In this document: piece by piece, positions 7,776-43,092 of the stretch | Position numbering within the stretch: the stretch's first letter is position 1 | How the letters are laid out: each line of letters begins with the position of its first letter | Assembly: GCF_054482595.1 (NCBI RefSeq) | Contig: NZ_CM137008.1 | Strand: one strand, 5' to 3' | Length of the DNA: 64,000 bases | The notes under the pieces: generated by a model | Databases searched by the model: none | Seen by the model: the letters and a program-made list of their open reading frames with translations, nothing else | Told to the model about the DNA's origin: nothing | Made by a program: the position numbers and the translations under genes

Positions 7776-7804
7776 TAAAACAGGGTGGCAGTCCTACATA
7801 CCGG

Positions 7805-21691: not shown

Positions 21692-21709
21692 ATCAGCGCA
21701 GTTGTGCAG

Positions 21710-22055: not shown

Positions 22056-22069
22056 GTCGCCACGGTGTT

Positions 22070-25608: not shown

Positions 25609-25742
25609 CCAGTGTAATGTCGGATACGTTTCGCCTATCTGAGCTAACATCGCGTGTAGGCCGATGTGATTGACATCTTCCTCCTTACGGCATCAACGTT
25701 CCAGACTGAGATGTACCCAGTTCCCTGGTGGAGAAGTCAGTC

Positions 25743-26650: not shown

Positions 26651-27102
26651 ACGCGCTGTTGTGGCCATCGCCGCCAGAAAGGTAAGGCTGTGCTGGGCAT
26701 CATGTCATTACGGTGATGATTTCAGGCTGTATTCAGCCAGCTAAAGCACGCAGCAACCGTATGACTATCTGATCTGCAACTCGTTGATGATAAAGTGTTA
26801 GACCCTGTGAGGTATATCTGATTATTGTACAGGATATACGTATCCGCTTAACGAACAAGAGCCTCACGCGCGTCTTTCATCTGGGCCGAATAGATGAGAT
26901 TCATCATGGTTGTTTATAGTACCGTCGTCTCTCCCCTTTATTTTTACAGAAAAGCAAACAGAAACCATAAATACCGGCGTTGACATGGCGGGGAAGCCGG
27001 CAACGGCTATCCCTACCGTAATCATAATATTTCTGTCATTTCTGCTCCCTACAATGACGTTAGTTTTACTTCTGGGCGATAACAACGAAAGGAGAGTATG
27101 AC

Positions 27103-28446
27103 ATGCACAACTCCAAAATCCGGCTGGCTATACTGGTTGGCTGCATGGCTCTGAGCGCCAACCTGTGGGCCAAAGCGCAGCCGGTGCAGGCAACGCTGGC
27201 CGGGCATGCAATTCTGCCGGCAAAATCCGCTGTTTCAACACCGAAGGATGCGCCGGGCGATTTGCAACAGAGCGGCAAATACACCAGCGGCAAACGCGTC
27301 ACCGAGCTGGGCAGCGTGGCGGGCAAATCCGCAGAACGCCTGACAGGACTCAGCCTGCCGATCAATGGTCAGCCGTTGCAGGGCCACTCAGGTATCAAAC
27401 ACATGCCCGACGGTACCTATTGGGTGCTGACTGACAATGGCTTCGGCAGCAAAGCCAACTCCCCGGATGCCATGCTGTACCTCAACCAATACAAGATAGA
27501 TTTCAAAGACGGCTCGGTAGTACCGCTGAAGACGCTGTTCCTGCATGATCCGGATAAAAAGGTGCCGTTCCACATCATCAACGAGAGCACCGAACTACGC
27601 TATCTGACCGGCAGCGATTTTGATCCGGAAAGCTTCCAGTTTTCCGACGATGCCTTATGGATCGGTGATGAGTTCGGTCCTTACCTGATCAAGACCGACC
27701 TGAACGGCAAGGTGCTGGCGGTGTTCGACACAGAAGTGGACGGTAAGGTGGTTAAATCGCCGGACAACCCGACGCTGACTCTACCTAGCGCTCCGGACGG
27801 TAAGCTGAACTTCCAGGTGGCGCGTTCCAAAGGCTTTGAAGGCATGGCCATCTCGCCGGACGGCAGTAAGCTGTATCCGCTGCTGGAAGGGGCATTGTGG
27901 GACGGTGAGCAGTTCGAGAACGTTGACGGAAAACGCTACCTGCGTGTGCTGGAGTTCGATACCAAACAGCAGGCCTGGACTGGTCGCAGCTGGCAGTACG
28001 TGCTGGAAGACAACCAGAACGCCATCGGCGACTTCAATATGATAGATGATACCCACGGACTGGTGATCGAGCGTGATAACGGCGAAGGCACGGCGGATAA
28101 AGCCTGCGTCGCCGGCGCGCCGACCAACAACTGCTTCAGTCAAGTAGCCAGGTTCAAACGGGTGTATAAAATTGCTTTCTCGGACACTAACGTCGGAAAA
28201 CCTGTCGAAAAACTGGGCTATATTGACCTGATGAAGATTCAGGATCCGAACAAGCTGGCACGCAAGCCGCTGAACGACGGTGTGCTGACCTTCCCGTTCT
28301 TCACCATCGAGAACGTGGATGTGGTTGACACTAACCACATCATCGTAGGCAACGATAATAACTTCCCGTTTTCCTCCAGCCGCTGGCCTAATATGGCGGA
28401 TGACAACGAGTTTATTCTACTGGATGTGAAGGATTTTCTGAAGTAG
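27103..28446 (+). CDS. secreted phytase-like esterase-family protein
   Basis: 447 aa with signal peptide (MHNSKIRLAILVGCMALSANLWA); family call is by recollection only. Confidence 0.5.
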   Translation: MHNSKIRLAILVGCMALSANLWAKAQPVQATLAGHAILPAKSAVSTPKDAPGDLQQSGKYTSGKRVTELGSVAGKSAERLTGLSLPINGQPLQGHSGIKHMPDGTYWVLTDNGFGSKANSPDAMLYLNQYKIDFKDGSVVPLKTLFLHDPDKKVPFHIINESTELRYLTGSDFDPESFQFSDDALWIGDEFGPYLIKTDLNGKVLAVFDTEVDGKVVKSPDNPTLTLPSAPDGKLNFQVARSKGFEGMAISPDGSKLYPLLEGALWDGEQFENVDGKRYLRVLEFDTKQQAWTGRSWQYVLEDNQNAIGDFNMIDDTHGLVIERDNGEGTADKACVAGAPTNNCFSQVARFKRVYKIAFSDTNVGKPVEKLGYIDLMKIQDPNKLARKPLNDGVLTFPFFTIENVDVVDTNHIIVGNDNNFPFSSSRWPNMADDNEFILLDVKDFLK

Positions 28447-28485
28447 GGGGAAGAGCATCTTACGATACTCCTCGCTAATTTAAAA

Positions 28486-28512
28486 ACGAACGGTGCTGAG
28501 CACCGTTTTTAA
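28486..28512 (+). terminator. Rho-independent terminator
   Basis: AACGGTGCT-GA-AGCACCGTT hairpin followed by TTTT, about 40 bp after the stop of the 27103-28446 gene. Confidence 0.6.
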
Positions 28513-28563
28513 TCACCTCGCCAGAACCTACCAGAATATGATGTTGGTGGTAATGACTCCAAC

Positions 28564-29067
28564 TTATTGATAGTGTTTTATGTTCAGATAATGCCCGATG
28601 ACTTTGTCATGCAGCTCCACCGATTTTGAGAACGACAGCGACTTCCGTCCCAGCCGTGCCAGGTGCTGCCTCAGATTCAGGTTATGCCGCTCAATTCGCT
28701 GCGTATATCGCTTGCTGATTACGTGCAGCTTTCCCTTCAGGCGGGATTCATACAGCGGCCAGCCATCCGTCATCCATATCACCACGTCAAAGGGTGACAG
28801 CAGGCTCATAAGACGCCCCAGCGTCGCCATAGTGCGTTCACCGAATACGTGCGCAACAACCGTCTTCCGGAGACTGTCATACGCGTAAAACAGCCAGCGC
28901 TGGCGCGATTTAGCCCCGACATAGCCCCACTGTTCGTCCATTTCCGCGCAGACGATGACGTCACTGCCCGGTTGTATGCGCGAGGTTACCGACTGCGGCC
29001 TGAGTTTTTTAAGTGACGTAAAATCGTGTTGAGGCCAACGCCCATAATGCGGGCTGTTGCCCGGCAT
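28564..29067 (-). CDS. insB: IS1 InsB
   Basis: 167-aa ORF; the functional transposase would be the InsAB' frameshift fusion. Confidence 0.9.
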
Positions 29068-29261
29068 CCAACGCCATTCATGGCCATATCAATGATTTTC
29101 TGGTGCGTACCGGGTTGAGAAGCGGTGTAAGTGAACTGCAGTTGCCATGTTTTACGGCAGTGAGAGCAGAGATAGCGCTGATGTCCGGCGGTGCTTTTGC
29201 CGTTACGCACCACCCCGTCAGTAGCTGAACAGGAGGGACAGCTGATAGAAACAGAAGCCAC
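28986..29261 (-). CDS. insA: IS1 InsA
   Basis: 91 aa; [40 protein letters not shown]... Confidence 0.9.
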
Positions 29262-29396
29262 TGGAGCACCTCAAAAACACCATCATACACTAAATCAGTA
29301 AGTTGGCAGCATCACCCGCAGGACTTAGGTGCCGTAGCCTTAGTACCAAAAGGCGATACCTCTGGCGCTGACCGTAAAGGTCTTTTCAATCGTTCA

Positions 29397-29843
29397 TTGT
29401 TCAAATATGACCAGGAAAAAGATATTTATATTTGCCCGATGGGTGAAGAACTTCAGAACCGATTTACGATGGTTGAGGATGGTTTAGAACAGCAAATGTA
29501 CTTTAACAATATTGCCTGTCGCGATTGCAGTCAGCGGTCAAGGTGCACCACATCAAAACGCGATCCGAGGCGTATAAAGCGCTGGGTTCATGAAGCAGAA
29601 ATGGAAGACATGCAAGCCAGGCTTAATGCATCGCCACAAACAGCTGTCGTGCGAAAGCAAACGGTAGAGCATCCGTTCGGGACAATTAAGATGTGGATGG
29701 GAGCGACTCACTTCCTGACGCAACGGTTTAAAAACGTCAGCACAGAAATCAGTCTGCATGTACTGGCTTATAACCTGAAGAGGATGATGTCCATCTGGGG
29801 GGCCGAAGGATTGGCCATTAAGCTGCGAGAACGATGCAGCTAG
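29397..29843 (+). pseudogene. DDE transposase C-terminal fragment (IS5/IS1182-like), truncated at the IS1 junction
   Basis: ...HPFGTIKMWMGATHFLTQRFKNVSTEISLHVLAYNLKRMMSI is a typical DDE transposase C-terminus; the N-terminal half is absent. Confidence 0.5.
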
Positions 29844-30167
29844 CGGCAGTGGCCGCTTTAACTCCTAATAACTGGCCATTAGTACTCCATATCAAGCCAC
29901 AAAGTCTCGTTTTGCCTCAACATACAAATCACTGCGAATACAGCCCATATCAGGAATATCTTGCATCCCTGCTGGTGTTAGTCCTCAGATACTGAAAAAA
30001 CCGAGTTTTTACACAGCCTGGGCACGAAGCGGACCGCCTGAAGCGCAGCAAGGTCTGCTTTGAACTCACAGCGAAGAGCAGAATATACCGGGAGATATCC
30101 TCTTTCATGAGTTGGCAGCCTCTCTCGCATAATATCGAAAACACGGGAGAGGCCGTTACAGCCGCCG

Positions 30168-30932
30168 TTAGTTAGCACGGAATTCCTGGACGGTATCCCA
30201 TGCCACCTGCTGCAGCGCTTTGGCGGTTTGCTCGGTCATATCGCTGTCGGCAGGCAGTGCGCCGCCTATCGGTGACTGGTCATACAGCGTGGCGAACAGC
30301 ACGCTGGCAGCCAGATAGGTTCCCGCCAGCGAGGGGTGATTTCCATCGCTATGATACAGATTGATTTCAGGATGCGTCTTAATTGCGTTACTGAAGGCCA
30401 GCCCGACCGGCGCGACGTATCCCCCGGTTTTACTGGCTATATTCAGATAGGCTTTCTCCAGTTTTTCAGTTTGCTCGGGTTTATCCTTGCTGGCCCAGGT
30501 CATAAAATAAACCACACGCGAGCCCTCTTTGTGAGCCATATCTGCCATCTTGACGGCGGACTCCGTGAAATAGTGACGCGAATCTTTTTTAGCGGAAAAA
30601 GGCTCTGTTGAATTCCCCTGAAATATCACCACGTCCCATTTTTGCAGCGTATTCTGGAATTCAAGATTCGGAAGGTGCCAGCCTAAACGTCCAGAAGAAA
30701 TGGTGATTCCCCGGAACATATAGTCTTTAGCGCCATTCGGTAACAGCGAACGGCTGAGATCGCGCAGTCGGGTATTTATATTATTGTTATAATGTGTATA
30801 TGAATTTCCGTAGAGCGCAATGGATTTATTGACTCCGCTCAGTTTATCCTGCGGTTTGGCTGCAATAATCGTATCGGCCTGCGCGTCGACCATCAGCGCC
30901 AGTCCTGCCAGCAACAACATGATTTTTTTCAT
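30168..30932 (-). CDS. secreted SGNH/GDSL-type hydrolase (esterase-like)
   Basis: Start set at ATG 30932 (MKKIMLLLAGLALMVDAQA signal); family assignment tentative. Confidence 0.5.
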   Translation of the reverse strand: MKKIMLLLAGLALMVDAQADTIIAAKPQDKLSGVNKSIALYGNSYTHYNNNINTRLRDLSRSLLPNGAKDYMFRGITISSGRLGWHLPNLEFQNTLQKWDVVIFQGNSTEPFSAKKDSRHYFTESAVKMADMAHKEGSRVVYFMTWASKDKPEQTEKLEKAYLNIASKTGGYVAPVGLAFSNAIKTHPEINLYHSDGNHPSLAGTYLAASVLFATLYDQSPIGGALPADSDMTEQTAKALQQVAWDTVQEFRAN

Positions 30933-30942
30933 TATTCTTTCC

Positions 30943-31992
30943 TCAGAAGTCGTAGCGCAACCCGACGATAATGGCGTCATCGTTGACCTTCTCGTTTTTA
31001 CTGGCCAGCGTATTAAGGTAAGTTGCTGATAAATACACATTCTTAGCTAAGGTTAGCTGCGATTCAATTCGCCAGCCCTCGTGTTCGTACACATCCTCGT
31101 CGGCTTCATCCAGGATGCTGTACCCGCCAAGCACTTTGAATTCTTTGGTGAATTGATAGGAGGCAACGGAATCGAAACTCGTATAGTCATTGTCAGATTT
31201 ATTGTCTCTTTCTATGGAGACCTTACCCGCCGTTACGGCTAATGACAAATCGCTATAATCGAACTGCAGCCCGCCCATTACCTGGCTGTGCTTCTTGCGG
31301 CCGTCGGTGGTTTTTACGCCGTCCTGACGGTTATATTGACTGACGGCAATCGCCGGTGTGATTTTTACGTCGCCGAATTTAATCATCTTGCGATAACTGG
31401 CCATCATGCCGTTATCAAGTGCATCGTTGTCGCTATTGCCATTTCCAAAAACGTAAGCCAGTTGCACCTGATGCCCGCTAAAATCACCGTTCCATTGCAG
31501 GGTGCCATCCTGACGGTTAAATTGGTAAGAATCGTCAATAGTGGTAATACCGTAGTTATATACGTTTGGCGTAAAGTTTTTATATTTGTCCGTCATGCGC
31601 ATGACCTGATATAACGGGTTTTTAGTACGACCGGCAATCAGCTCGCCATATTTAGCATGAGAAAGCCCCAGATAGGCGTAACGGGCGTCGAGATCTTTAT
31701 CTTTGGTTTTATTATCATCTTTTTCAGTACGAACCTGCCACTCCAGGCGACCGACAAGTTTAGTATCTTCCAGTAAAGGGAGGTCGCGGGTTAAATAAAT
31801 CCCTAAGCGCCCCCCTATTTGGCTACGGGAGTCATCATTTGCGAATGATGCTTCTCCATTCGCTAACTGCCACTCAATACGCCCGTAAATATCCAGCGTG
31901 GTGGCTTTATCCTCATAAACGCTAATCGCCAGCGCTGACGTGCTAGCCCCAGATAAGGCAATGAATAATAATGTTTTGGCTTTAATGCTCAT
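30943..31992 (-). CDS. outer-membrane beta-barrel porin
   Basis: 349 aa, signal peptide (MSIKAKTLLFIALSGASTSALA), alternating hydrophobic pattern, C-terminal ...GLRYDF with terminal Phe. Confidence 0.6.
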   Translation of the reverse strand: MSIKAKTLLFIALSGASTSALAISVYEDKATTLDIYGRIEWQLANGEASFANDDSRSQIGGRLGIYLTRDLPLLEDTKLVGRLEWQVRTEKDDNKTKDKDLDARYAYLGLSHAKYGELIAGRTKNPLYQVMRMTDKYKNFTPNVYNYGITTIDDSYQFNRQDGTLQWNGDFSGHQVQLAYVFGNGNSDNDALDNGMMASYRKMIKFGDVKITPAIAVSQYNRQDGVKTTDGRKKHSQVMGGLQFDYSDLSLAVTAGKVSIERDNKSDNDYTSFDSVASYQFTKEFKVLGGYSILDEADEDVYEHEGWRIESQLTLAKNVYLSATYLNTLASKNEKVNDDAIIVGLRYDF

Positions 31993-32410
31993 GCTGTTCT
32001 TCCCCTTTAAAAAATAAATATGTTCGCCCTTGATGCAGGATTAAATAGTTGTTATCAGGCGCCATTAATTTTTAGTTACATTAATGCAGAGCGAATACGG
32101 GAATTGCGTTTTCTCATAATAAAATGTGATTTTACGCACATAAAATAGGGCTTAATGGCTGGCGTTGTTATTTGTGAAGATTTCATTGAAAATAAATAAT
32201 AGCGATTTAATTGATTCTCTCCGAACTGAGATATAAATGGCGAATTTATGTTAATCTCATCACGTTTTTCATATTGTGATCCCCGGAACATATGGGAAAT
32301 GCATATTCCCCTGTTTACGCAGTGAGAATTGCTCCAGAATACTCGTTACGCAGTTAAATTTGATTTGAATGATATGCTGTTATCAGCGACGTACGTCACA
32401 GGAGTTTATA

Positions 32411-33781
32411 ATGCCAGGCAGTCAAAGTTCGGTATTTGATTCAGAATTGTATTCCTCTCTCTTCACGCAGCCGGAGATGAAATCAATCTGGTCCGATGAT
32501 AATCTTCTTCGCTGTTGGCTGACCTTTGAAGCAACCATCGCGCATGTGCAGACTGAGTTAGGTATTATTCCCCCTGAAGCCGCCGCGGAAATTTCCGCCG
32601 CCTGCCAGACGCTGAAAATAGACTGGCCGCGCCTCGCCAGGGAAACGCGTTCCGTCGGTATGGCGATTAAGCCTCTGGTTGATCAAATTGCCGATGCGGG
32701 TTCCCCTTTGGTCAAAAAATACCTTCACTGGGGCTGCACGACTCAGGATCTGCTGGATACCGCCCTGGCCATGCGCATGAAGCAAACCCTGCAATTACTG
32801 CGCAGACAGTTGGTGCAGTTGGGCGAAACGTTGAAAGCTATGGCGCTTGAGCACCGACATACGGTGATGGTCGCCAGAACGAATTCCGTCGATGCTTCCG
32901 CCACGACGTGGGGGCTACACGTCAGCAGCTATCTGTCCGAGCTAACCCGCCACCTTCAGCGCCTGGATCGCCTCTACCCGGCAGCGACTACCGGCCTGTT
33001 TGGTGGCGCGGTCGGCAACCTGGCCTCCGTCGGCAGCCAGGGAATGGCGATACGTAAGCAATTAATGGGCGCGTTAGGGTTGTCATGCCCTGTCGGTATG
33101 AGCAATGCCAGTCAGGATCATGTAGTCGAAGTGGTGCAGTTTTTTGCCCTGGTGCATGGCACGCTGTGTCGCATGGCCAACGACGTTGAAACGCAGGGCC
33201 GCACGTCCGTGGGCGAGTTGCGTGAAGGCGAAGGCGGTGGAGGATCCAGTACGATGCCACACAAGACGAATCCCCGCGCGAGCAATATGATCCAGACGCT
33301 TTCCCGCATGGGCTGGAACTATGCCTCTGGTGCAACCAGCCTTCTCGATCAGTGTGACGTGCGTGCTGCCTCCGCCCGCGTACTCAACTGGACGCTGGTA
33401 CCGGAGTCGGCGCTGGCCTTGTCGGCCAGCCTTGAACGTGCTGTCCGGTTAATTACGCATCTGGTGGTGGACAAAGAGAAGATGCGCAGCAACTTCGCCG
33501 CTTCAAAGAACTTCATTATGTCGGAATCCGTCACCATGGTATTGGCTGAGAAAATCGGGCGTGGTGCCGCTTACGATCTGATGAAAGCGTTATTAAAAGA
33601 CGCAGACGGCTCTAAAGACCTGTTGCAGTGCATGCTGGAAAATCAGACCGTTATTGACGCGCTAACTGAGTCGGAGATTGTTGCTGCTTGCGATCCATTG
33701 TCTTATCTGGGCTGCAATGACGCGCTGATCGAAGAAACCGTCATAGCCTTCGACGATTACATTCATGTCCGGACGGCGTAG
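32411..33781 (+). CDS. fumarate-lyase-superfamily enzyme (adenylosuccinate-lyase / 3-carboxymuconate-cycloisomerase-like)
   Basis: ATG 32411 preceded by AGGAG; signature GSSTMPHKTNP (GSSxMPxKxN); substrate not inferable from sequence. Confidence 0.75.
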   Translation: MPGSQSSVFDSELYSSLFTQPEMKSIWSDDNLLRCWLTFEATIAHVQTELGIIPPEAAAEISAACQTLKIDWPRLARETRSVGMAIKPLVDQIADAGSPLVKKYLHWGCTTQDLLDTALAMRMKQTLQLLRRQLVQLGETLKAMALEHRHTVMVARTNSVDASATTWGLHVSSYLSELTRHLQRLDRLYPAATTGLFGGAVGNLASVGSQGMAIRKQLMGALGLSCPVGMSNASQDHVVEVVQFFALVHGTLCRMANDVETQGRTSVGELREGEGGGGSSTMPHKTNPRASNMIQTLSRMGWNYASGATSLLDQCDVRAASARVLNWTLVPESALALSASLERAVRLITHLVVDKEKMRSNFAASKNFIMSESVTMVLAEKIGRGAAYDLMKALLKDADGSKDLLQCMLENQTVIDALTESEIVAACDPLSYLGCNDALIEETVIAFDDYIHVRTA

Positions 33782-33834
33782 TCCAGAGCCATTCGCTTCC
33801 TGCCGAAAGCAGGTGTGCCGACAGGAAGCGGTCA

Positions 33835-34722
33835 TTATCCAGGAAGAGGTGAAAAGGTTTCAAAAAAGACAAACAGTTCCTCCAGTTGCTCGAAATTGCC
33901 CTCGCCTTCGCCTTTTTCATAGGCCAGATGCAACACCAGCTCAATAAAAAAGAAACCTACGATGCGGCTTTTGAATACGGATTGCGTATCGCTCGGCAAC
34001 ACAAACTGCAGATTACAAAATTTGCCGTACGGGTTGGACTCCGAGTTAGTAATCAGCACTACCGTCGCGCCTTTTTTACAACACCATTCGGTAACGCGAA
34101 TCACTACCCGGTTAAAACGGTAGTAGGAGAAAACGATCAGCACGTCCTGATCCGTAACGGTCAGCAATGACTTCGGCAACTCCCCAACGTCCATAGAAAG
34201 CAATGTAACCCGATCGCGGAAATATTTAATCAGCGTAGTAAAATGTTTCGCCATCGCATAGGAAGACGCGGGACCGATTACGTATATATGTCGGTTGGTA
34301 TTCAAAATAATGTCGATAAATTTATCCAGACTGTCAATATTGATATTATCTTTAAAATTCTCGAACAAGGTCGTAACATTCTTATTAAATTCGGAAACAA
34401 TTTGTTCCGTGGTAATCTTTTCTTTTACCTGAATGCGTGATGCCAGCTCAAACGGCGGCACCATTTTTTGCAGTGTCAGCGTATTTTCCAATGCCCGACG
34501 GAAGTCAGCGTAGCCGATAAATCCCAGCTTATTTAAAAAACGCCCAACCGTTGCTTTACTCACCATTGCATTGCGGGCAATGTCGATGATGCCGTGAAAA
34601 GGGAGTTCATTAAAATGTTCACGCATATACGCGTCAAGACGGTGTTCTGACTCGGTTAGTGAACATAACAGCACGGTTTTTGAAATATAGTCCTCTAATG
34701 TTAAAGGGGTATTTTTTTTCAT
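33835..34722 (-). CDS. RpiR/MurR-family transcriptional regulator (HTH + SIS domain)
   Basis: 295 aa; N-terminal HTH (...IIDIARNAMVSKATVGRFLNKLGFIGY...), C-terminal SIS-like region; divergent from the transporter gene. Confidence 0.7.
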   Translation of the reverse strand: MKKNTPLTLEDYISKTVLLCSLTESEHRLDAYMREHFNELPFHGIIDIARNAMVSKATVGRFLNKLGFIGYADFRRALENTLTLQKMVPPFELASRIQVKEKITTEQIVSEFNKNVTTLFENFKDNINIDSLDKFIDIILNTNRHIYVIGPASSYAMAKHFTTLIKYFRDRVTLLSMDVGELPKSLLTVTDQDVLIVFSYYRFNRVVIRVTEWCCKKGATVVLITNSESNPYGKFCNLQFVLPSDTQSVFKSRIVGFFFIELVLHLAYEKGEGEGNFEQLEELFVFFETFSPLPG

Positions 34723-35005
34723 AATTGTCGTCCTTACACACTACGGATAAAAAGATACTATATTCAGTATAGAGAATAACCTTATCACATAATAATGCTA
34801 TGCTATAGCCTTCCGTAAAGTGATTGACATATTTCCTGTTATGAGATCATGCGCACAAACCCCAGCGGGAAAAGCAATTTCTCATAGCTCACATTACCCT
34901 GATTCGATCATGATTTCATTACGGCATCAGTCTCTGAATTTATAGAGAATTAGGCGATCTAAATATAACTAGCCGTCATATATAGGAAAACAAAAGGACG
35001 ATCTC

Positions 35006-36382
35006 ATGACCGCATTTGTAATCGCAATCGTGATCACTATCATTGCAGCATGGTTAATCATCAAGAACTTCCAACCTCAGACGGTATTGCTGCTGGCTGG
35101 TTTGTCTTTACTGACCATTACTGCTGTCTTCTATCCTGATAATAGCATTCTCTACGGTAAGGCTAAATCAACCGGTTCCACCTGGCTGGATATCTTTACG
35201 TTTGCCAAAAATTCACTCTCCACACAGATCGCCGGTATCGGTTTGATCATCATGGCCGCGGGCGGCTTTGCCAGTTATATGGATCATATCAAAGCCTCCA
35301 ATGCAATGGTGAACGTCTGCATTCGTCCCCTGCAAATCATCAAGGCGCCCTACGTGATCCTGGCTGTGGGGTATATTTGCGCACAGTTGCTGCACGTCGC
35401 GATTTCCAGCGCCGCCGGGCTGGCGATGATGTTATTAGTGACGTTCTTCCCGGTGTTGGTACGACTGGGTGTCAGTAAAGCAGCGGCGGCGGCGATGATC
35501 GGTCTGTGCGCCTTTATGGACTTAGGCCCGGCGGTCGGCACGGCCAACCTGGCGGCTAAACATGCCGGTATGGAAGCCGCCGTTTACTTTGCGCACTATC
35601 AGATGCCGGTGGCTGTTGCCGTTATGTTGGTAGTGTCGGTGCTGATTTTCTTTACCGCCAAATATTATGACAAGAAAGATGGTCACGTGATGACCAGCCA
35701 GGTGGCGGACGACACGACGCCTCAGAGTGAGGATAGCGAAAAAGTGCCGGGGCTGTATGCTTTCCTGCCTGTATTCCCTGTGATTCTGGTGCTGGTCTTT
35801 AGCCCGTTGGTCATCTCCACCATTAAAATCGACGTAGTTACCGCCATGATTGTCGGCACAATACTGGCGTTCGTCTGCGAACTGTTCGTTAAACGCGACT
35901 TCCGTGCCTGCTGTAAAGGTGTACAGGTATTTTTTAAAGGAATGGGCGGGATGTTTACCAGCGTGGTTTCATTGTTAGTGTGTGCGGATATCTACGCGCA
36001 GGGAATGCAAAAAATCGGCGCGGTGGATTACCTGTTGGAGATGGTGCAGAACGCGGGCTTTGGCTTTGCCAGCATGACCGTGGTGATGACGCTGCTGGTA
36101 GGTATAACCGCTGTACTGACGGGCTCCGGGGTTGCGGCATTTTTCTCTTTCTCCGGCATGGCGCCTGCTATCGCCACTAAATTTGGCGAAAGCGCTGTAC
36201 ATATGATTCTGCCGATGCAACTGATGGCTGGAATGGGACGTTCCATTTCTCCCGTCGCAGGGATCATCATTGCGGTCAGCAAAGCCGGTGAATGTTCACC
36301 GTTCATGATAGTGCGCAGGACCTTAATTCCGGCGCTCGGCGGCATGCTTACCATGTTGCTGGCTAACTACCTGTTGTTCTGA
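35006..36382 (+). CDS. DcuC-family (C4-dicarboxylate-type) membrane transporter
   Basis: 458-aa polytopic membrane protein; size and composition resemble DcuC as I recall it. Confidence 0.55.
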   Translation: MTAFVIAIVITIIAAWLIIKNFQPQTVLLLAGLSLLTITAVFYPDNSILYGKAKSTGSTWLDIFTFAKNSLSTQIAGIGLIIMAAGGFASYMDHIKASNAMVNVCIRPLQIIKAPYVILAVGYICAQLLHVAISSAAGLAMMLLVTFFPVLVRLGVSKAAAAAMIGLCAFMDLGPAVGTANLAAKHAGMEAAVYFAHYQMPVAVAVMLVVSVLIFFTAKYYDKKDGHVMTSQVADDTTPQSEDSEKVPGLYAFLPVFPVILVLVFSPLVISTIKIDVVTAMIVGTILAFVCELFVKRDFRACCKGVQVFFKGMGGMFTSVVSLLVCADIYAQGMQKIGAVDYLLEMVQNAGFGFASMTVVMTLLVGITAVLTGSGVAAFFSFSGMAPAIATKFGESAVHMILPMQLMAGMGRSISPVAGIIIAVSKAGECSPFMIVRRTLIPALGGMLTMLLANYLLF

Positions 36383-36469
36383 AGGACGTGTCGTCAGTGC
36401 GATGCCATTAAATCCAGAGAGCCAGGCGAGAGTACTTTGTTGTCAACATCAGTTAGCCGGACGTAAGTT

Positions 36470-38164
36470 ATGACCCACGAAATCACAGACAATTTACTTT
36501 ATATCCCTTATGCAGGCCCGGTATTACTGGAATCCCCGCTGCTGAACAAAGGCAGCGGGTTTACTGAAACAGAACGCGCAATGTTTAACCTGAGCGGGCT
36601 GTTGCCCGCAGCGGTTGAGACGATTGAAGAGCAGTCGCTGCGGGCCTATCAGCAATTCCTGGATATCAAGTCGGATATTGCCCGTCATATCTTTCTGCGC
36701 AATATTCAGGATACCAACGAGACGCTGTTTTATCACCTTGTGAGCAAGCACCTGGTGGAAATGATGCCGATTATTTATACCCCGGTAGTCGGACATGCGT
36801 GTGAACACTTTTCCGACATCTATCGCCGCGCCAGGGGATTATTCATCGCCTGGCCGGACCGGCATATGATCGACGAAATATTGCATAACGCCACAAAGCA
36901 GAATATTTCGGTGATTGTCGTCACTGACGGGGAGCGGATCCTCGGCCTGGGCGATCAGGGAATTGGCGGCATGGGGATTCCTATCGGCAAACTTTCGTTG
37001 TACACCGCCTGCGGTGGTATTAAGCCGTCGCATACGCTGCCAATCTTATTGGATGCGGGAACGAACAATTCCCAATTGCTCAATGACCCTTTGTATATGG
37101 GTTGGCGTCATCCGCGCATCACCGGCGACGCATATTTTGAGTTCGTCGAGATGTTTATCCGCGCGGTTAAGCGCCGTTGGCCGGACGTGCTATTACAGTT
37201 CGAAGATTTTGCCCAACAGACGGCGATGCCGCTGCTGACCCGCTATCGTGATGAGATCTGCTGTTTTAATGATGATATCCAGGGTACCGCAGCGGTGACT
37301 TTGGGATGCCTGATGGCGGCAAGCCAGGCCTCCCAACGTCGGTTATGTGACCAAACGGTAGTCTTCCTGGGCGCGGGATCGGCCGGATGTGGCATTGCCG
37401 AACATATCGTCACGCAGATGGTGGCTGAAGGGTTGACCGATGAGCAGGCCCGTTCACGCATTTTCATGGTGGATCGCTTTGGCCTGCTTACGGACGATCA
37501 AACTAATCAGGCTCCTTTCCAGTCACCGCTGGCGCAGCCGCGGTCGCGTTTGGCGAGCTGGGGCGGTCAGCAGGAGGCGTACTCGCTGATGGACGTGGTA
37601 AGCCAGGCTAAACCGTCCGTTCTGATTGGCGTCAGCGGGCAGCCAGGACTATTCAGCGAAGCGGTGATCGGGGAAATGTATCGTCACTGTTCGCAACCGA
37701 TAGTTATGCCACTTTCCAACCCAACCTCGCGCGCAGAGGCACGGCCGGAAGATATTCTGCGCTGGACCGATGGTAACGCGTTAATCGCCACCGGCAGCCC
37801 GTTCGAGCCGGTAAGCCACGGGGGAAAATTGTATCCTGTTGCACAATGCAATAATGTTTATGTCTTCCCTGGTGTGGGTCTCGGCGTGATGGTTAGCCGT
37901 GCCACACGCGTCACGGATAACATGATGATGGCGGCCAGCCGCACGCTGGCAAGTTGTTCGCCGCTGGTGCGCGACGGGCGTGGTCCGCTGTTGCCCAGTA
38001 TTAATGACATCCGGCAGGTGACGCAGGCCATCGCCCTTGATGTTGCTCTGGCTGCTCAACGTGATGGCGTCGCCGTAAATATCCCGCAGGAAACCTTGCA
38101 ACATAACATTTCGAGCGGATTCTGGGAGCCGCAGTATCTTCAGTACAAGCGCACCTCATTCTGA
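36470..38164 (+). CDS. NAD-dependent malic enzyme (MaeA/SfcA paralog)
   Basis: 564 aa; ...[22 protein letters not shown]...[34 protein letters not shown]...[13 protein letters not shown]... tracks E. coli MaeA closely but is clearly diverged. Confidence 0.85.
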
Positions 38165-38280
38165 TAAGCAGTCTGTAGCGGGAAGATCTTGATACCGTTG
38201 GTAACGGCGGTATCAATTCCGTAAAAGCCGCATGGCCCGTATCTGTTCCGAGTGTATCCGGTGTTATGGTAGCGCAATCG

Positions 38281-38700
38281 TCACCGGGCATAGCGACCCG
38301 GCAGATTCATACACAGTTTCGTCTCCTCGGCATAGAAATGCGGCAGGTTCCGCTGATAGTCAGACGGCGTTACACCACAAAGCATTTTGAAATCTTTGCT
38401 GAAATGGGCCTGATCATGGAAATCGAGGTCACAAGCAAGGGTGCGCAAATCGACCACGCCGTGATGGATGCGCCGGCACGCTTCATTTACTCTGAGAATA
38501 CGGACAAACGATTTCCAGGAAACGCCAATCCTCTCCTGGCAGAAGCGGTTAATGTGCCGGGCGCTGTATGACGTCATCTCGGACAAGCTATTAAGACGAA
38601 TGCCCCCGTTCAGCGGGGAAGCATGCGTCAGTACCTGACGCAGCAGCGGTTTTTCCTCCAACACAGCGAAGGTGGAAGTTGAGAATAACTCCTTAAGCAA
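38281..38700 (-). pseudogene. AraC-family regulator, HTH domain only (sensor domain cut off by IS1 copy B)
   Basis: 139-aa ORF with an AraC-type HTH; an in-frame stop lies between it and the IS1 end at 38821. Confidence 0.55.
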
Positions 38701-38820
38701 AGGTAGCCCGCAGAAGTATACTGAACGCTATAAAGAATGTAGTGGAGATGCTGGTTGTGAACAGCAGATCCGTAAGGATATGGCGAAAGAATCGGCGGAA
38801 AATGTTCTTAAGTTGAAGTC

Positions 38821-39588
38821 GGTGATGCTGCCAACTTACTGATTTAGTGTATGATGGTGTTTTTGAGGTGCTCCAGTGGCTTCTGTTTCTATCAGCTGTC
38901 CCTCCTGTTCAGCTACTGACGGGGTGGTGCGTAACGGCAAAAGCACCGCCGGACATCAGCGCTATCTCTGCTCTCACTGCCGTAAAACATGGCAACTGCA
39001 GTTCACTTACACCGCTTCTCAACCCGGTACGCACCAGAAAATCATTGATATGGCCATGAATGGCGTTGGATGCCGGGCAACAGCCCGCATTATGGGCGTT
39101 GGCCTCAACACGATTTTACGTCACTTAAAAAACTCAGGCCGCAGTCGGTAACCTCGCGCATACAACCGGGCAGTGACGTCATCGTCTGCGCGGAAATGGA
39201 CGAACAGTGGGGCTATGTCGGGGCTAAATCGCGCCAGCGCTGGCTGTTTTACGCGTATGACAGGCTCCGGAAGACGGTTGTTGCGCACGTATTCGGTGAA
39301 CGCACTATGGCGACGCTGGGGCGTCTTATGAGGCTGCTGTCACCCTTTGACGTGGTGATATGGATGACGGATGGCTGGCCGCTGTATGAATCCCGCCTGA
39401 AGGGAAAGCTGCACGTAATCAGCAAGCGATATACGCAGCGAATTGAGCGGCATAACCTGAATCTGAGGCAGCACCTGGCACGGCTGGGACGGAAGTCGCT
39501 GTCGTTCTCAAAATCGGTGGAGCTGCATGACAAAGTCATCGGGCATTATCTGAACATAAAACACTATCAATAAGTTGGAGTCATTACC
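38821..39588 (+). mobile_element. IS1 (complete, 768 bp), copy B, inverted relative to copy A
   Basis: Starts GGTGATGCTGCCAACTTACTGAT at 38821 and ends ...ATCAATAAGTTGGAGTCATTACC at 39588; insA 38876-39151, insB 39070-39573. InsB differs from copy A at two residues (S65R, S88R), so the copies are not identical. Confidence 0.95.
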
Positions 39589-39594: not shown

Positions 39595-42500
39595 TCAGAA
39601 ACGATATTCCACACTCAACATGGCAGATGTATTATGGTATCCATGTTCTCCAAGTTGAATGCCTGCATCAGCCCGGAATGCTACTTCTGGTGTTATCATT
39701 CCCACAACACCACCATTTATTTCTCCGATATCACGCGCACCATCCTGGTATATACTTACACCATTCATACTGGTGCCGAAAACACGACTATTGTGCAACC
39801 AGTGTGCCTCCACAAATGGTCTGAACGGAACCGCATACCGCGTATTTTTACCGTTTTTGCTGGTAAGCCATGTTCTTGCTCCCAGGCGGGTGAGAATATT
39901 TCCGTTACCGGTATTTTCAATACTGGTTCCGTTACTTTCATGATATTTGTCTGATTTTACATTCATCCGGACAACCTGAAGCTGCGGCTGAACATACCAT
40001 TCATGACTTCCCTTGTAATTGTCGGTAAACTCTCCAGCCTTCCATGAATATCCTGCTTCCAGAGATACCGTAAACCCTTTTGACTTCCATGACTCAGCAG
40101 GCAGCCGTTCTCCATTTATATGATTATCAAACCAGCTGTATTGCAGCCAGCTATCAAGATAAGAACCATTGTGTGTTTCATCATTGGCATACCATGTTGC
40201 ATAAAGACCCGCTGTGTATCCATTCATTCTTCCTTCCGAATGGTATCCGGTGCTCAGGGCATTCGTACTGTTATTATTATGACCATAGCCAGCCATCATA
40301 CCTGTATGCCAGCGATCGGTACCATTCAGGCTCCACTGAGCTATATCTCCCCCTATTAACACAACGTAGCTATTCCCCCGGGTTCTCAGCTGACTACTGT
40401 TGTCACGCCAGCGATTATGTTTTCCTTTATTATACATCCAGATACCTGCTTCATTTTCTTCTCCTGTCATGTGGCTGATATACAACTCCTGTCCCTGTCG
40501 TTCATACAGATTCGTTACAAACAGATTATTTGCAGCAGCAATACTGGCAACATAGCTACCTGCCTCAGGACGCAAATTATTATCATGGCTTTCCGGTACA
40601 GCTTCAGGTTGTGGTACAGGAATGTCTTTTCTGCTAATCAGATACCAGTTAGTGCTGTTAATCCCCTGACCACGTTTCAGTATGTAATCATAAGCTCCGG
40701 CTGTAATACGTTCCGTCTGAATGAATTCAGCATTATCAGCATTGCCACTGACGTGAATCACTTCAATCCCATTAAGTGTCTCTGCACCAGTACCACCGGC
40801 CTGAGTAACAGCGACACGGGTACGGCCACTGGCATTACCTTTAATCACCAGACGATCTGTTTTCGAATTGTCACCACCTGTTTCTGTCTGGAGGAGAATA
40901 AGTCCATTTCTGCCAGTGTAATTCCCTCCGACAGTCAGTATATTACCCGGCATATATGTAGTGAGATCGACTATACCACTATTGCTCAGATTTCCTGCAA
41001 CGCCCCCAAACCCGGAGAGTTTGCCCTGCTCTTCAACAATGACCTGGTTACTGCCGAGCATCACCGGTGAATCTGCGTTCCCCAGTATCACTGTCCCCTG
41101 AATAATATCTGTCATCCCGGTCCATTTTGCGTTATCGCTAATGTTCAGTGCACCTGCTCCCGTCTTGCGAACATTACCATAACCACTGATATTGTTGGTA
41201 AGCTGCCATGCTGATGTACTGTTCAGAGTTAATGTGCCATAGTTATCAACAAAGGCTGTCCCCAGATTATCAGCCGTGGATACAGCCAAATGAGCCCCCT
41301 TATTCACGGTAAAAACACCGGAAAAATTACGATTATTACCCGTTATATCAAGCATTCCCCCATTTATGTTCAGAGAACCATCCCCTGCAATAGTACCTGC
41401 AGATTCTCCTCCATTATTCAGTATCAGACTTCCGCCATGAATGTTCAGCACAGAGCCTGCAGCCGTCAGTAGTTTGCTTATTGTCTGAGGATACCCATTC
41501 ATATCCAGTTCTGCGCCACGGGATAAATATAAATACTCAGTCCGACCAAGAGCATCAGGTGCAGCAAGAATTAATACGCCAGATTTAACCTCTGTATTTC
41601 CTGTATAATTGTTTGTTGCAGAAAGTATAAGAGTACCATTACCTGATTTTGTCAGACTTTTGCCGTCCCAGCCATCATATAATAAAGGTGAAAGATTATC
41701 GGAAAGAGAAACGCCTATGTTCAGAGTGGCATCTTTTTCTATATTAAAGGTTCCATATCCCATCCCTTTTGTATTATTCCATCTCAGCATGGATATCAGT
41801 TTGTTATCGTCGTCATTTAAAGACGTATAAACATAACTTTCAGCACCTTCTGTCAGTAATACATTGTATTGTACAATGTGACTATTATCAGCGATCGAGA
41901 TACCTGTGTCTGACGACAATAATGTGTAATAGTCCTGAGTCCAGTTCTTAATTGATGTGTCTATATTAAGCCATGAATCACTTTTTAATGTAATAGTATT
42001 TGCGTGAACATTAGCATTTCCTACAGACAGGTTCATAGATGCGTCTTCATCAATACTTATATTTCCGTTAAAAATGGAGTTCTTGCCTGACAGATAAACA
42101 GATGAGCCATTCCCAATCATTAGCCCACCATTAATTGCTGTTGCGTTATTGATGTTTTTAATAATTAATTCATTTGTACCATTAACAGGTATACTAGCTA
42201 GTTTAATATCACCATTAATCACAGAATCTGAATAAATATCTAATGAATTATACCCGCCAGAAAAAATTATTGATGTATTATAAGCATCTTTTTGGCTATT
42301 ATATAATCCTGAAAGATTACCATGATTATTAATATGGATATCTTCTCCATAAACAGAGCAACCACCGTCGGGGCCATATCCCCCCTGAACAATACCGTTA
42401 TTATTCAAAGTGATTTGATTTCCAGAAATAGCATCTCCCCCTTGTTTTATTCCATATCCTCCAGATATCATGTTGTCGTTAGTAATGAAAAGATTACTAC

Positions 42501-43092
42501 CATTAATACCATCACCACCGTTTACGCCATTACCGCCCAATATTCCTCCGGAATTATGCACTGTAATATTGCTACCGGTTACACCGGAACCACCTGTCCC
42601 ACCTACATCATCACCTCCGTATATACTTCTGTAATTATCAACTATAATATCATCCCCGCTTAACCCTGCACCTCCGCTACTTCCTGAGCCACCAAGACCA
42701 TTACCCCCATATACATTTCTGTAATTGTTTATAGATATTTTGTTGCCACTAACAGCAATTCCACCATTATATCCATCTCCTCCCCAAACACTACCATTAT
42801 TATTTAGCGTAAAGTTTTCACCGTAGACACCTGCACCACCGATTGATGTATTGCTTGTTCCTCCTTTGATGTTAATACTGCTTTCAACAGATAGTATATT
42901 TTGAGTATAACTTGTTTTATACGGCACGCTGATATTAAGCGCCGCGTTTCCATCAACACCTGTAATACTCCTGGTTATACTTTCAGGTATACCATTACCA
43001 TTCAGTTGTATTGTTTGCGCACCAGAAAAATGAGACTGCACAGAATAAAGTATACTGACCAGAAATTGTAAAATTCGTATATTCTTATTCAT
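39595..43092 (-). CDS. autotransporter adhesin (type Va), AIDA/pertactin-like Gly-rich passenger
   Basis: 1165 aa; signal peptide; repeated GG-x-G and NxS/T passenger repeats; C-terminal beta-barrel ending ...SAMLSVEYRF; AT-rich gene. Confidence 0.8.
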   Translation of the reverse strand: MNKNIRILQFLVSILYSVQSHFSGAQTIQLNGNGIPESITRSITGVDGNAALNISVPYKTSYTQNILSVESSINIKGGTSNTSIGGAGVYGENFTLNNNGSVWGGDGYNGGIAVSGNKISINNYRNVYGGNGLGGSGSSGGAGLSGDDIIVDNYRSIYGGDDVGGTGGSGVTGSNITVHNSGGILGGNGVNGGDGINGSNLFITNDNMISGGYGIKQGGDAISGNQITLNNNGIVQGGYGPDGGCSVYGEDIHINNHGNLSGLYNSQKDAYNTSIIFSGGYNSLDIYSDSVINGDIKLASIPVNGTNELIIKNINNATAINGGLMIGNGSSVYLSGKNSIFNGNISIDEDASMNLSVGNANVHANTITLKSDSWLNIDTSIKNWTQDYYTLLSSDTGISIADNSHIVQYNVLLTEGAESYVYTSLNDDDNKLISMLRWNNTKGMGYGTFNIEKDATLNIGVSLSDNLSPLLYDGWDGKSLTKSGNGTLILSATNNYTGNTEVKSGVLILAAPDALGRTEYLYLSRGAELDMNGYPQTISKLLTAAGSVLNIHGGSLILNNGGESAGTIAGDGSLNINGGMLDITGNNRNFSGVFTVNKGAHLAVSTADNLGTAFVDNYGTLTLNSTSAWQLTNNISGYGNVRKTGAGALNISDNAKWTGMTDIIQGTVILGNADSPVMLGSNQVIVEEQGKLSGFGGVAGNLSNSGIVDLTTYMPGNILTVGGNYTGRNGLILLQTETGGDNSKTDRLVIKGNASGRTRVAVTQAGGTGAETLNGIEVIHVSGNADNAEFIQTERITAGAYDYILKRGQGINSTNWYLISRKDIPVPQPEAVPESHDNNLRPEAGSYVASIAAANNLFVTNLYERQGQELYISHMTGEENEAGIWMYNKGKHNRWRDNSSQLRTRGNSYVVLIGGDIAQWSLNGTDRWHTGMMAGYGHNNNSTNALSTGYHSEGRMNGYTAGLYATWYANDETHNGSYLDSWLQYSWFDNHINGERLPAESWKSKGFTVSLEAGYSWKAGEFTDNYKGSHEWYVQPQLQVVRMNVKSDKYHESNGTSIENTGNGNILTRLGARTWLTSKNGKNTRYAVPFRPFVEAHWLHNSRVFGTSMNGVSIYQDGARDIGEINGGVVGMITPEVAFRADAGIQLGEHGYHNTSAMLSVEYRF

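What the first reader, a model, noticed from the sequence alone, without database searches (positions are those of the whole stretch)
28549..39588. Two inverted IS1 copies bracket a 9.5-kb catabolic module, without flanking target duplications
The IS1 copies at 28549-29316 (minus) and 38821-39588 (plus) are each full length and enclose six intact genes. The 9-bp flanks (GATGTTGGT / GACACATCA outside; none matching inside) do not form target-site duplications, and both inner junctions truncate genes (a DDE transposase at 29397, an AraC regulator at 38700). This looks like an IS1-mediated composite that moved or was remodelled by IS1-IS1 recombination.
Basis: seen in the sequence. Interest (0 to 1): 0.55.

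Follow-up and report, generated by a model that had tools for sequence, protein, structure and literature searches.

The report
IS1-bounded invertible metabolic gene cassette
Two copies of the common E. coli jumping gene IS1 enclose a 9.5-kb block of acid-utilisation genes that flips and swaps neighbours by recombination between the IS1 copies; this is a clear but ordinary case of insertion sequences reshuffling a genomic island.

Summary
Two full-length 768-bp IS1 copies lie in inverted orientation and differ at 2 bases. They enclose 9,504 bp with six intact genes, and no 9-bp target duplication fits a direct, composite or inversion pattern.

The window is an E. coli genomic island. In complete genomes the same locus occurs with the module in both orientations, with breakpoints exactly at the IS1 ends. 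EC17CM6 carries the inverted form and differs from the window by 3 substitutions in 28.5 kb of non-IS1 DNA. A second pair of flanks also shows both states.

About 15 genomes carry the same module with no IS1. There it runs on into DNA that the window lacks, so the cassette was carved out of a longer island. Each outer junction also exists on its own in genomes where that IS1 does not touch the module. Other strains show IS1-adjacent deletions.

No target duplication was found in 10 contexts, so transposition as a compound transposon is not supported. One detail is wrong: IS1 copy 2 cuts a hypothetical ORF, not the AraC-type remnant.

This is a known kind of event, so interest is low. The six-gene core is 95% identical to Trabulsiella DNA and its substrate is unknown.

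The parts
27103..28446 (+). Outer left neighbour: a 447-aa gene annotated 'esterase-like activity of phytase family protein'. Its terminator is followed by the IS1 insertion point, with GATGTTGGT at 28540-28548.
   Evidence: In empty-site genomes the DNA continues GATGTTGGT|TTATTATCAC... into a MurR/RpiR gene. That sequence is absent from the window.
28549..29316 (-). IS1 copy 1. It is 768 bp, with IRR facing the phytase-like gene and IRL facing the module. insA and insB' are intact.
   Evidence: RefSeq annotates the same element in 118C_1_fosA3 and EC17CM6 as an IS1A-family transposase with programmed frameshift. CS6L has an IS1 at the same site and in the same orientation, but there its IRL side abuts an IS66 fragment, not the module.
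29317..30033 (+). 3' remnant of an IS1182-family insertion sequence (ORF fragment 29319-29843), cut by IS1 copy 1.
   Evidence: NCBIfam IS1182 transposase, profile positions 333-487 of 488. It is 99.4% identical over module positions 1-717 to an intact IS1182-family element on a Citrobacter freundii plasmid. It is absent from the IS1-free forms, whose homology to the window starts at 30018.
30099..38236 (.). Six-gene core. DUF4886/SGNH hydrolase 30168-30932 (-). Porin 30943-31992 (-). Class-II fumarase/aspartase-family lyase 32411-33781 (+). MurR/RpiR regulator 33835-34722 (-). DcuC transporter 35006-36382 (+). NAD-dependent malic enzyme 36470-38164 (+).
   Evidence: The core is 95% nt identical and colinear with a Trabulsiella odontotermitis contig, 84% with Enterobacillus and 82% with Lelliottia. 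All or part of the cluster is syntenic in Yersinia, Serratia, Providencia, Budvicia, Raoultella, Leminorella and others. The closest solved structure to the lyase is trans-aconitate decarboxylase Tad1, E = 2e-72.
38281..38700 (-). AraC-type HTH-only remnant. It was already truncated before IS1 arrived.
   Evidence: Only C-terminal HTH-domain matches. There is a stop codon in frame before the IS1 junction. The same short ORF is present in IS1-free CS6L, LH85-a and Z1323CEC0016. It is not homologous to the genes next to the cluster in Trabulsiella or Enterobacillus.
38672..38820 (+). 5' fragment of a hypothetical ORF, annotated as 197-233 aa in IS1-free relatives. This is the ORF that IS1 copy 2 interrupts.
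   Evidence: Annotation in 118C_1_fosA3. The IS1-free continuation ...GTTGAAGTC|TTGCTGGGAGTC... is seen in Z1323CEC0016 and CS6L. There is no Pfam or NCBIfam match.
38821..39588 (+). IS1 copy 2. It is 768 bp, with IRL facing the module and IRR facing the autotransporter.
   Evidence: The junction IRR|GACACATCA + autotransporter also exists in module-free genomes such as DG342-2.
39595..43092 (-). Outer right neighbour: a 1165-aa AIDA-type autotransporter. Its stop codon lies 6 bp from IS1. It is probably aatA.
   Evidence: Its 3,498-bp length, the IS91/IS3-family elements on its 5' side and IS1 on its 3' side match the published description of aatA (PMC2944236). Sequence identity to published aatA was not tested.

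Best explanation
The structure is a cassette bounded by IS1 copies in an E. coli genomic island. It was produced and is still being rearranged by IS1-driven events. It did not arrive by transposition of a compound transposon.

Shown:
1. The six-gene core entered E. coli from a Trabulsiella-like enterobacterium. About 15 genomes still carry it without IS1, inside a longer segment: MFS - UxaA-like - LysE - six genes - AraC remnant - hypothetical ORF - DUF7878 - ISKpn26. In CS6L and Z1323CEC0016 this segment lies downstream of the phytase-like gene, in the window's orientation.
2. In every IS1-bounded copy examined, the two inner junctions are identical: ...AAGTCCTGCG|IRL inside an IS1182 remnant, and ...GTTGAAGTC|IRL inside a hypothetical ORF. 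The cassette was therefore formed once.
3. Each outer junction also exists where that IS1 does not adjoin the module. phytase|IRR occurs in CS6L, where the module lies 10 kb away. IRR|autotransporter occurs in DG342-2, which has no module.
4. The segment between the inverted IS1 copies is found in both orientations, with exchange inside the IS1 copies. This holds for two different flank pairs and for loci that are otherwise almost identical.
5. Other strains show one-sided IS1-adjacent deletions into the module or outward.

Inferred:
- Each inner junction arose from an IS1 already sitting at the outer site. Either the IS1 made an adjacent deletion from its IRL end by intramolecular transposition, or a new IS1 inserted and then recombined with the resident copy. 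Either route removes the target duplication.
- The flips are homologous, RecA-type crossovers between the 768-bp inverted repeats.
- The inversion should have no effect on expression in cis. The IS1-to-module junctions do not change, and both outer genes point their 3' ends at the IS1 copies.
- The cargo probably imports an organic di- or tricarboxylate (porin, DcuC), converts it with the lyase and feeds malate to pyruvate through the malic enzyme, under RpiR control. The substrate is unknown.
For: Orientation polymorphism.
- EC17CM6 spans the same 24,001 bp, with both flanks on one strand and the module on the other.
- Junction sequences show exact swapping of the inner half-sites at the IS1 ends.
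- The window differs from EC17CM6 by 0, 0 and 3 substitutions in 9,548, 9,504 and 9,412 bp.
- Census at the phytase side: 3 genomes have phytase-IS1-IS1182 end and 13 have phytase-IS1-AraC end.
- Census at the autotransporter side: 24 genomes have IS1182 end-IS1-autotransporter and 10 have AraC end-IS1-autotransporter.
- Second flank pair: Br_167_kylling versus M21170 have identical outer junctions, CACTTTTTGAAAGCA and GACACATCAG, paired the opposite way.

IS1-free forms.
- 15 genomes have an uninterrupted right junction.
- CS6L matches window 30018-38820 continuously at 99.92%. LH85-a is similar.
- Z1323CEC0016 has a microhomology deletion joining MurR' to DUF4886'.

Outer junctions apart from the module.

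Adjacent deletions.
- 4FM: from the IRL end into the porin gene.
- HCM-21C-2: loss of window 17575-28548 from the IRR end.
- EC052 versus HCM-21C-2: a 50-bp difference at the right flank.

No target duplication in 10 contexts, although the control IS1 has a perfect one.

The reciprocal half-junctions are absent from all 5,426 genomes.

IS1-mediated inversions and deletions by recombination between copies are documented experimentally in E. coli (PMC4173774).
Against: - No intermediate was found with an intact IS1182 next to the module, or with a simple IS1 insertion plus duplication at either site. The order and mechanism of the junction-forming steps are therefore inferred.
- The IS1 at the phytase site in CS6L is only about 95% identical to the window's copies. 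Gene conversion or replacement of IS1 sequence must be assumed.
- SNP patterns in the IS1 copies are mosaic and do not map a single crossover.
- RecA dependence cannot be tested here.
- Some orientation calls in public assemblies could reflect mixed populations or assembler choice across a 768-bp inverted repeat.
- Orientation differences could also come from cassette replacement during horizontal transfer rather than inversion in place.
Confidence: 0.8

Rival explanations
1. It is a true compound transposon with inverted IS1 arms, like Tn1681. It transposed as a unit into the site between the phytase-like gene and the autotransporter, using its two outer IRR ends.
For: Two intact IS1 copies with intact ends and transposase ORFs flank the cargo. 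The same unit, with invariant inner junctions, lies next to at least 12 different outer sequences, including two related plasmids.
Against: No 9-bp duplication flanks the unit in the window or in any of 9 other contexts examined. A simple IS1 insertion in the same island has a perfect one. Both outer junctions exist separately from the module. The two outer flanks are not contiguous in empty-site genomes, where the phytase flank runs into MurR.
Confidence: 0.05
2. The two orientations arise by cassette replacement rather than inversion in place. Incoming DNA carrying IS1-module-IS1 recombines by double crossover with two resident inverted IS1 copies. Because the arms are inverted repeats, it can land either way round.
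For: The module occurs on plasmids as well as chromosomes. Both outer IS1 junctions exist without an adjacent module. The IS1 copies show mosaic SNP patterns.
Against: The window and EC17CM6 differ by only 3 substitutions across 28.5 kb of flanks and module, so a single intramolecular crossover is the simpler event. No genome was found with the two resident IS1 copies at these sites enclosing other DNA.
Confidence: 0.12
3. These are two independent, simple IS1 insertions into an otherwise contiguous locus, and their target duplications have decayed. Alternatively, the structure is an assembly artefact.
For: IS1 is abundant in E. coli: IS1 sequence matched in about 4,970 of 5,426 genomes. A 768-bp inverted repeat can mislead assemblers.
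Against: In IS1-free relatives the DNA beyond both inner junctions (LysE side, rest of the hypothetical ORF) is absent from the window, and so is the DNA beyond the outer-left site. The flanking 9-mers share no decayed similarity. The same junctions recur at 100% identity in dozens of independent complete assemblies.
Confidence: 0.03

Closest known systems
IS-mediated chromosomal inversions and deletions by recombination between IS copies in E. coli (long-term evolution experiment, PMC4173774; mutation-accumulation lines, PMC5009759)
   Same: Recombination between IS1 copies produces inversions when the copies are inverted and deletions when they are direct or by adjacent deletion. The breakpoints lie inside the IS, and no new target duplication forms.
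   Different: This segment is small (9.5 kb) and lies within a horizontally acquired island. It is seen as a standing polymorphism in natural isolates in two flank contexts, not in laboratory lines.
IS1-flanked compound structures: Tn9 (direct IS1), Tn1681 heat-stable enterotoxin transposon and the pColV-K30 aerobactin region (inverted IS1). This comparison rests on my own knowledge and was not checked here.
   Same: Full-length IS1 copies bracket a block of accessory genes. The arms are inverted, as in Tn1681 and the aerobactin region.
   Different: No target duplication was found in any of 10 contexts, and the outer junctions exist apart from the cargo. Transposition as a unit is not shown. 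The cargo is a metabolic cluster, not a toxin, resistance or siderophore locus.
IS1-mediated adjacent deletion by intramolecular transposition (classical IS1 genetics; from my own knowledge)
   Same: The IS1 keeps one junction while the other junction moves to a nearby site. This is seen in 4FM, in HCM-21C-2, and in EC052 versus HCM-21C-2. It would explain why both IS1 copies in the window lack target duplications.
   Different: The events are inferred from comparing genomes, not observed. They cannot be told apart from insertion followed by IS1-IS1 recombination.
The aatA locus of avian pathogenic E. coli (PMC2944236)
   Same: A 3,498-bp autotransporter ORF with IS91 and IS2-like (IS3-family) elements on its 5' side and IS1 on its 3' side. 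The regions further out vary between strains.
   Different: The paper does not describe the IS1-bounded metabolic module next to the gene. Sequence identity of the window's ORF to published aatA was not tested here.

Membership tests
IS1 insertion sequence | An element of about 768 bp with imperfect terminal inverted repeats of about 23 bp, and insA plus insB' ORFs joined by a programmed frameshift | tested here: met
   Both copies are 768 bp. Their ends are GGTGATGCTGCCAACTTACTGAT and GGTAATGACTCCAACTTATTGAT, and the 91-aa and 167-aa ORFs are intact. RefSeq annotates identical copies as IS1A-family transposase with programmed frameshift.
IS1 insertion sequence | A 9-bp target-site duplication flanking each simple insertion | tested here: not met
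   Copy 1 has GATGTTGGT and CGCAGGACT. Copy 2 has GTTGAAGTC and GACACATCA. A control IS1 in the same island of 118C_1_fosA3 has a perfect AGAGAACAG duplication. The window's copies are therefore not in their original insertion context.
Compound (composite) transposon | Two copies of the same IS flanking the cargo | tested here: met
Compound (composite) transposon | A direct target duplication flanking the whole unit | tested here: not met
   There is no match in the window or in 9 other contexts: L001 (right arm truncated), L006-L011, L039 and L040.
Compound (composite) transposon | Outer flanks contiguous in an empty-site relative, showing insertion of the whole unit at one target | tested here: not met
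   In DG342-2 and Br_167_kylling the phytase flank continues into MurR. The IS1-autotransporter junction exists without the module, and the phytase-IS1 junction exists without an adjoining module.
Inversion by homologous recombination between inverted repeats | Both orientations occur between the same outer flanks, with breakpoints inside the repeats and reciprocal exchange of the inner junctions | tested here: met
   Window and 118C_1_fosA3 versus EC17CM6 and 10 other genomes. Br_167_kylling versus M21170.
Inversion by homologous recombination between inverted repeats | Dependence on RecA and independence from the transposase | not testable with these tools
   This needs recA and insAB mutants with junction PCR or long reads.
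IS1-mediated adjacent deletion | The IS is retained, one junction is unchanged, and the other junction moves to a nearby site with loss of the DNA between | tested here: met
   4FM: the phytase|IRR junction is kept and the IRL end now lies inside the porin gene. HCM-21C-2: the IRL junction is kept and the IRR junction has moved to window 17574. This is met in relatives; for the window's own junctions it is only inferred.

The most novel reading that the evidence does not exclude
The cargo may be the interesting part. It is a six-gene cluster, conserved in whole or in part across Enterobacterales: an exported DUF4886/SGNH esterase, a dedicated porin, a Tad1/CMLE-like lyase, DcuC, an NAD-malic enzyme and an RpiR regulator. 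It could encode an uncharacterised pathway for an organic-acid conjugate or a tricarboxylate. E. coli appears to have acquired it recently from a Trabulsiella-like donor. It may now be spreading, mostly among poultry-associated E. coli, between IS1-marked sites on chromosomes and plasmids. The route would be homology-driven cassette exchange in either orientation, with no transposition step.
Probability: 0.3. Interest if true: 0.45.

Novelty: new member of a known kind. Interest (0 to 1): 0.25.

Why it matters
This is a well-documented natural example of how IS1 copies, once present in an island, trim genes away by deletion, flip segments and swap neighbours, all without leaving transposition footprints.

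It has three practical consequences.
- The orientation and neighbours of this module cannot be trusted in short-read assemblies. Draft contigs that carry it are typically 9.4-10.1 kb.
- A missing target duplication should not by itself be read as evidence that a composite element moved.
- aatA-linked islands in avian and extraintestinal E. coli differ structurally even between nearly identical strains.

The biological effect of the inversion itself is probably nil. The unknown function of the cargo is the only part with real discovery potential.

Tried and rejected
1. Target duplications. I tested direct, composite and inversion or duplicative-inversion patterns in the window and in 9 other contexts. 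None matched.
2. Partner of the left duplication. I searched for IS1-IRL|GATGTTGGT followed by MurR. The window has no such sequence. The five best genomes, such as SCU-387, have a different and more diverged IS1 that ends about 115 bp away, with a different left flank.
3. Partner of the right duplication. I searched for IS1-IRR|GTTGAAGTC followed by the rest of the hypothetical ORF. None of the 5,426 genomes has it.
4. Native neighbour of the AraC remnant. The genes next to the cluster in Trabulsiella and Enterobacillus are not homologous to it.
5. Crossover mapping. The IS1 SNPs at positions 103, 127, 345, 444 and 513 form mosaic patterns that suggest gene conversion. They did not resolve a crossover point.
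6. Plasmids pMRE162 and 2273-PO3. They carry the module in opposite orientations relative to a shared RepB backbone, but their outer junctions differ. This is not a clean third inversion pair.
7. LH85-a as a possible intermediate. It simply carries two IS1-free copies.
8. The interrupted hypothetical ORF has no Pfam or NCBIfam match.
9. Literature. The search for DUF4886 found only a general review of SGNH hydrolases. The link to S-(2-succino) lyase is only a lead from memory and was not tested.
10. The window contains no tRNA gene, so the island's integration site is not in view.


Full report
**1. Observation**

The repeat finder reports one inverted pair, 28549-29316 and 38821-39588. Each arm is 768 nt and they lie 9,504 nt apart. 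A direct comparison finds two mismatches, at IS1 positions 444 and 513.

The ends read GGTGATGCTGCCAACTTACTGAT... and ...GGTAATGAC (reverse complement), as expected for IS1. Both copies keep the 91-aa insA and 167-aa insB' ORFs. Both IRL ends face inward and both IRR ends face outward. The window contains no other IS1 sequence.

The four 9-bp flanks are GATGTTGGT, CGCAGGACT, GTTGAAGTC and GACACATCA. They match in no direct or reverse-complement pairing. This excludes two simple insertions, one composite transposition, and an inversion of two simple insertions.

The test has power. Strain 118C_1_fosA3 is otherwise colinear with the window. It carries a third IS1 with a perfect AGAGAACAG duplication, and the window shows the empty site at 53140-53148.

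**2. What lies between the IS1 copies**

From left to right:
- 29317-30033: the last 717 bp of an IS1182-family element. It matches NCBIfam profile positions 333-487 of 488. It is 99.4% identical to an intact copy on a Citrobacter freundii plasmid.
- 30099-38236: an 8.1-kb core of six intact genes. These are a DUF4886/SGNH hydrolase, a porin, a class-II fumarase/aspartase-family lyase, a MurR/RpiR regulator, DcuC and an NAD-dependent malic enzyme.
- 38281-38700: an AraC-type remnant that contains only the HTH domain.
- About 38672-38820: the first 41-149 nt of a hypothetical ORF.

The core is 95% identical at the DNA level and colinear with a Trabulsiella odontotermitis contig. It is 84% identical to Enterobacillus and 82% to Lelliottia. 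All or part of the cluster is syntenic in Yersinia, Serratia, Providencia, Budvicia, Raoultella and Leminorella, among others.

The lyase falls below every curated NCBIfam cut-off. Its closest solved relative is trans-aconitate decarboxylase Tad1, E = 2e-72. DcuC and the malic enzyme pass their cut-offs.

**3. Where the window comes from**

The window is an E. coli genomic island. The 9.5-kb segment matches 161 of 5,426 complete genomes, and 65 of them match at 99% identity or better.

The left neighbour is a phytase-like esterase gene in a ugpB - IS110 - esterase block. The right neighbour is a 1165-aa AIDA-type autotransporter. Its 3,498-bp length and its IS91/IS3-family (5') and IS1 (3') neighbours match the published description of aatA from avian pathogenic E. 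coli. I did not align the sequences.

**4. Both orientations exist**

In EC17CM6 the 24-kb query spans exactly 24,001 bp. Both flanks lie on one strand and the module on the other. In 118C_1_fosA3 the arrangement equals the window.

The junction sequences show that the outer half-sites are unchanged and the inner half-sites are swapped exactly at the IS1 ends. Outside IS1, the window differs from EC17CM6 by 0, 0 and 3 substitutions in the 9,548-bp left flank, the 9,504-bp module and the 9,412-bp right flank. It differs from 118C_1_fosA3 by about the same amount. The flip is therefore very recent.

I ran a census with synthetic junction queries.

| Junction | Window-type | Inverted-type |
|---|---|---|
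| Phytase side | 3 genomes (IS1182 end next to IS1) | 13 genomes (AraC end next to IS1) |
| Autotransporter side | 10 genomes (AraC end next to IS1), 7 from one dog-hospital clone | 24 genomes (IS1182 end next to IS1) |

A second flank pair shows the same thing. Br_167_kylling and M21170 share the outer junctions CACTTTTTGAAAGCA (a PD-(D/E)XK nuclease gene) and GACACATCAG (the autotransporter), but pair them with opposite module ends.

**5. IS1-free relatives and the origin of the cassette**

Fifteen genomes have the right junction uninterrupted. There ...GTTGAAGTC|TTGCTGGGAG... continues through the hypothetical ORF into a DUF7878 gene and ISKpn26.

In CS6L the match to the window runs without a break from 30018 to 38820 at 99.92% identity. 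On the left it continues into LysE, a UxaA-like dehydratase and an MFS transporter, with no IS1182 and no IS1. LH85-a has two such copies.

CS6L also shows the wider order: tRNA-Phe - integrase - IS1 - ugpB - IS110 - phytase-like gene - IS1 - IS66' - hsdR'M' - ISEc35 - MFS - UxaA - LysE - module. The IS1 after the phytase-like gene sits at the same GATGTTGGT site and in the same orientation as in the window. The module has the window's orientation.

Z1323CEC0016 joins a MurR remnant directly to the start of DUF4886 through a microhomology deletion, again in the window's orientation.

Three conclusions follow:
- The window's orientation relative to the phytase-like gene is the ancestral one, and the more common opposite orientation is derived.
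- The window lacks the DNA that flanks the module in IS1-free relatives.
- The phytase|IS1 junction does not depend on the module.

The IS1|autotransporter junction is likewise present in the module-free genome DG342-2. There the other side of that IS1 abuts an integrase gene, again with no duplication. In empty-site genomes the phytase flank continues into a MurR gene, which the window lacks.

**6. Other IS1 footprints**

The inner junctions are identical in every IS1-bounded copy examined, on 11 chromosomes and 2 plasmids. At least 12 different outer IRR flanks occur. None of the 10 contexts gives a 9-bp duplication.

Several strains show one-sided deletions that start at an IS1 end:
- 4FM: from the IRL end into the porin gene.
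- HCM-21C-2: from the IRR end outward, removing window 17575-28548.
- EC052 versus HCM-21C-2: a 50-bp difference at the right flank.
- W2-5 and ECSD228: coverage patterns suggest further truncations. I did not inspect these.

The reciprocal half-junctions expected from simple insertions are absent from all 5,426 genomes.

**7. Mechanism**

Shown: the cassette formed once, it flips between its IS1 arms, and IS1-adjacent deletions occur around it.

Inferred:
- Each inner junction was made from an IS1 already at the outer site. This happened either by adjacent deletion from the IRL end or by a new insertion followed by IS1-IS1 recombination. Both routes remove the target duplication.
- The flips are homologous crossovers. 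This process is documented experimentally for IS1 in E. coli (PMC4173774).
- No regulatory effect is expected. The IS1-module junctions do not change, and both outer genes point their 3' ends at the IS1 copies.

Cassette replacement by double crossover during horizontal transfer remains a possible alternative source of the orientation polymorphism.

**8. Comparison with known elements and verdict**

In structure this resembles compound transposons with inverted IS1 arms. It fails the defining tests for having transposed, namely a duplication around the unit and a contiguous empty site. It meets the criteria for inversion by recombination between inverted repeats, and relatives show IS1-adjacent deletion.

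It is a new instance of a well-known kind of event. Interest is low, about 0.25. The uncharacterised cargo pathway, and its apparent concentration in poultry-associated isolates (no statistics were done), is the only lead with more potential.

Noticed in passing
window 53140-53148: This is the empty target site AGAGAACAG. Strain 118C_1_fosA3 has a third IS1 here with a perfect 9-bp duplication. The same strain also has an extra IS3-family insertion near window 49000.
   Followed up: yes
window 32411-33781 (lyase) and the whole core 30099-38236: The lyase falls below all curated family cut-offs. Its closest solved structure is trans-aconitate decarboxylase Tad1 (E = 2e-72). Its cluster with DcuC, malic enzyme, porin, DUF4886 esterase and RpiR is syntenic, in whole or in part, across many Enterobacterales (Yersinia, Serratia, Providencia, Budvicia and others). 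Vibrionaceae and Mannheimia loci mostly match only around the lyase. The substrate is unknown.
   Followed up: partly
L031 (E. coli YJ3, NZ_AP023226.1 3729528-3737537): A second allele of the same six-gene cluster, 85% identical, sits beside the lsr operon (lsrF, lsrG) with IS100 and other IS elements nearby. Several genomes carry it. This looks like an independent acquisition.
   Followed up: partly
L006 and L007 (plasmids of 2273-PO3 and MRE162): Related RepB plasmids of 77-96 kb carry the IS1-bounded module in opposite orientations relative to the backbone. Their outer junctions differ. The 2273-PO3 copy also has an IS66 inserted in the IS1182 remnant.
   Followed up: partly
window 59725-64000: DNA phosphorothioation genes dndB, dndC and the start of dndD, 100% identical to 118C_1_fosA3.
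   Followed up: no
window 56187-58874 (-): A second autotransporter gene (895 aa) lies next to a ProQ/FinO pseudogene, about 13 kb from the aatA-like gene.
   Followed up: no
window about 3600-10400: A CP4-like island backbone: CbtA/YeeU type IV toxin-antitoxin, a JAB/RadC-like gene, an antirestriction gene, DUF932, DUF905 and a GTPase. The first 3.1 kb of the window does not match 118C_1_fosA3.
   Followed up: no
draft assemblies: Contigs that carry the exact module proteins are often 9.4-10.1 kb long. This is the expected result when short-read assemblers break at the two IS1 copies. The exact lyase sequence was seen on about 1,000 contigs, so the module is much more widespread than the complete-genome census suggests.
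   Followed up: no
L034 (CS6L) 4982-5749 and 10023-10790: The IS1 copies at conserved island sites in CS6L are only 93-95% identical to the window's IS1, yet one of them occupies exactly the same insertion site as IS1 copy 1. This suggests replacement or gene conversion of IS1 sequence at a fixed site.
   Followed up: partly
Klebsiella pneumoniae plasmids: Many large conjugative Klebsiella plasmids carry a dcuC plus DUF4886 pair that is about 75% identical to part of the module.
   Followed up: no
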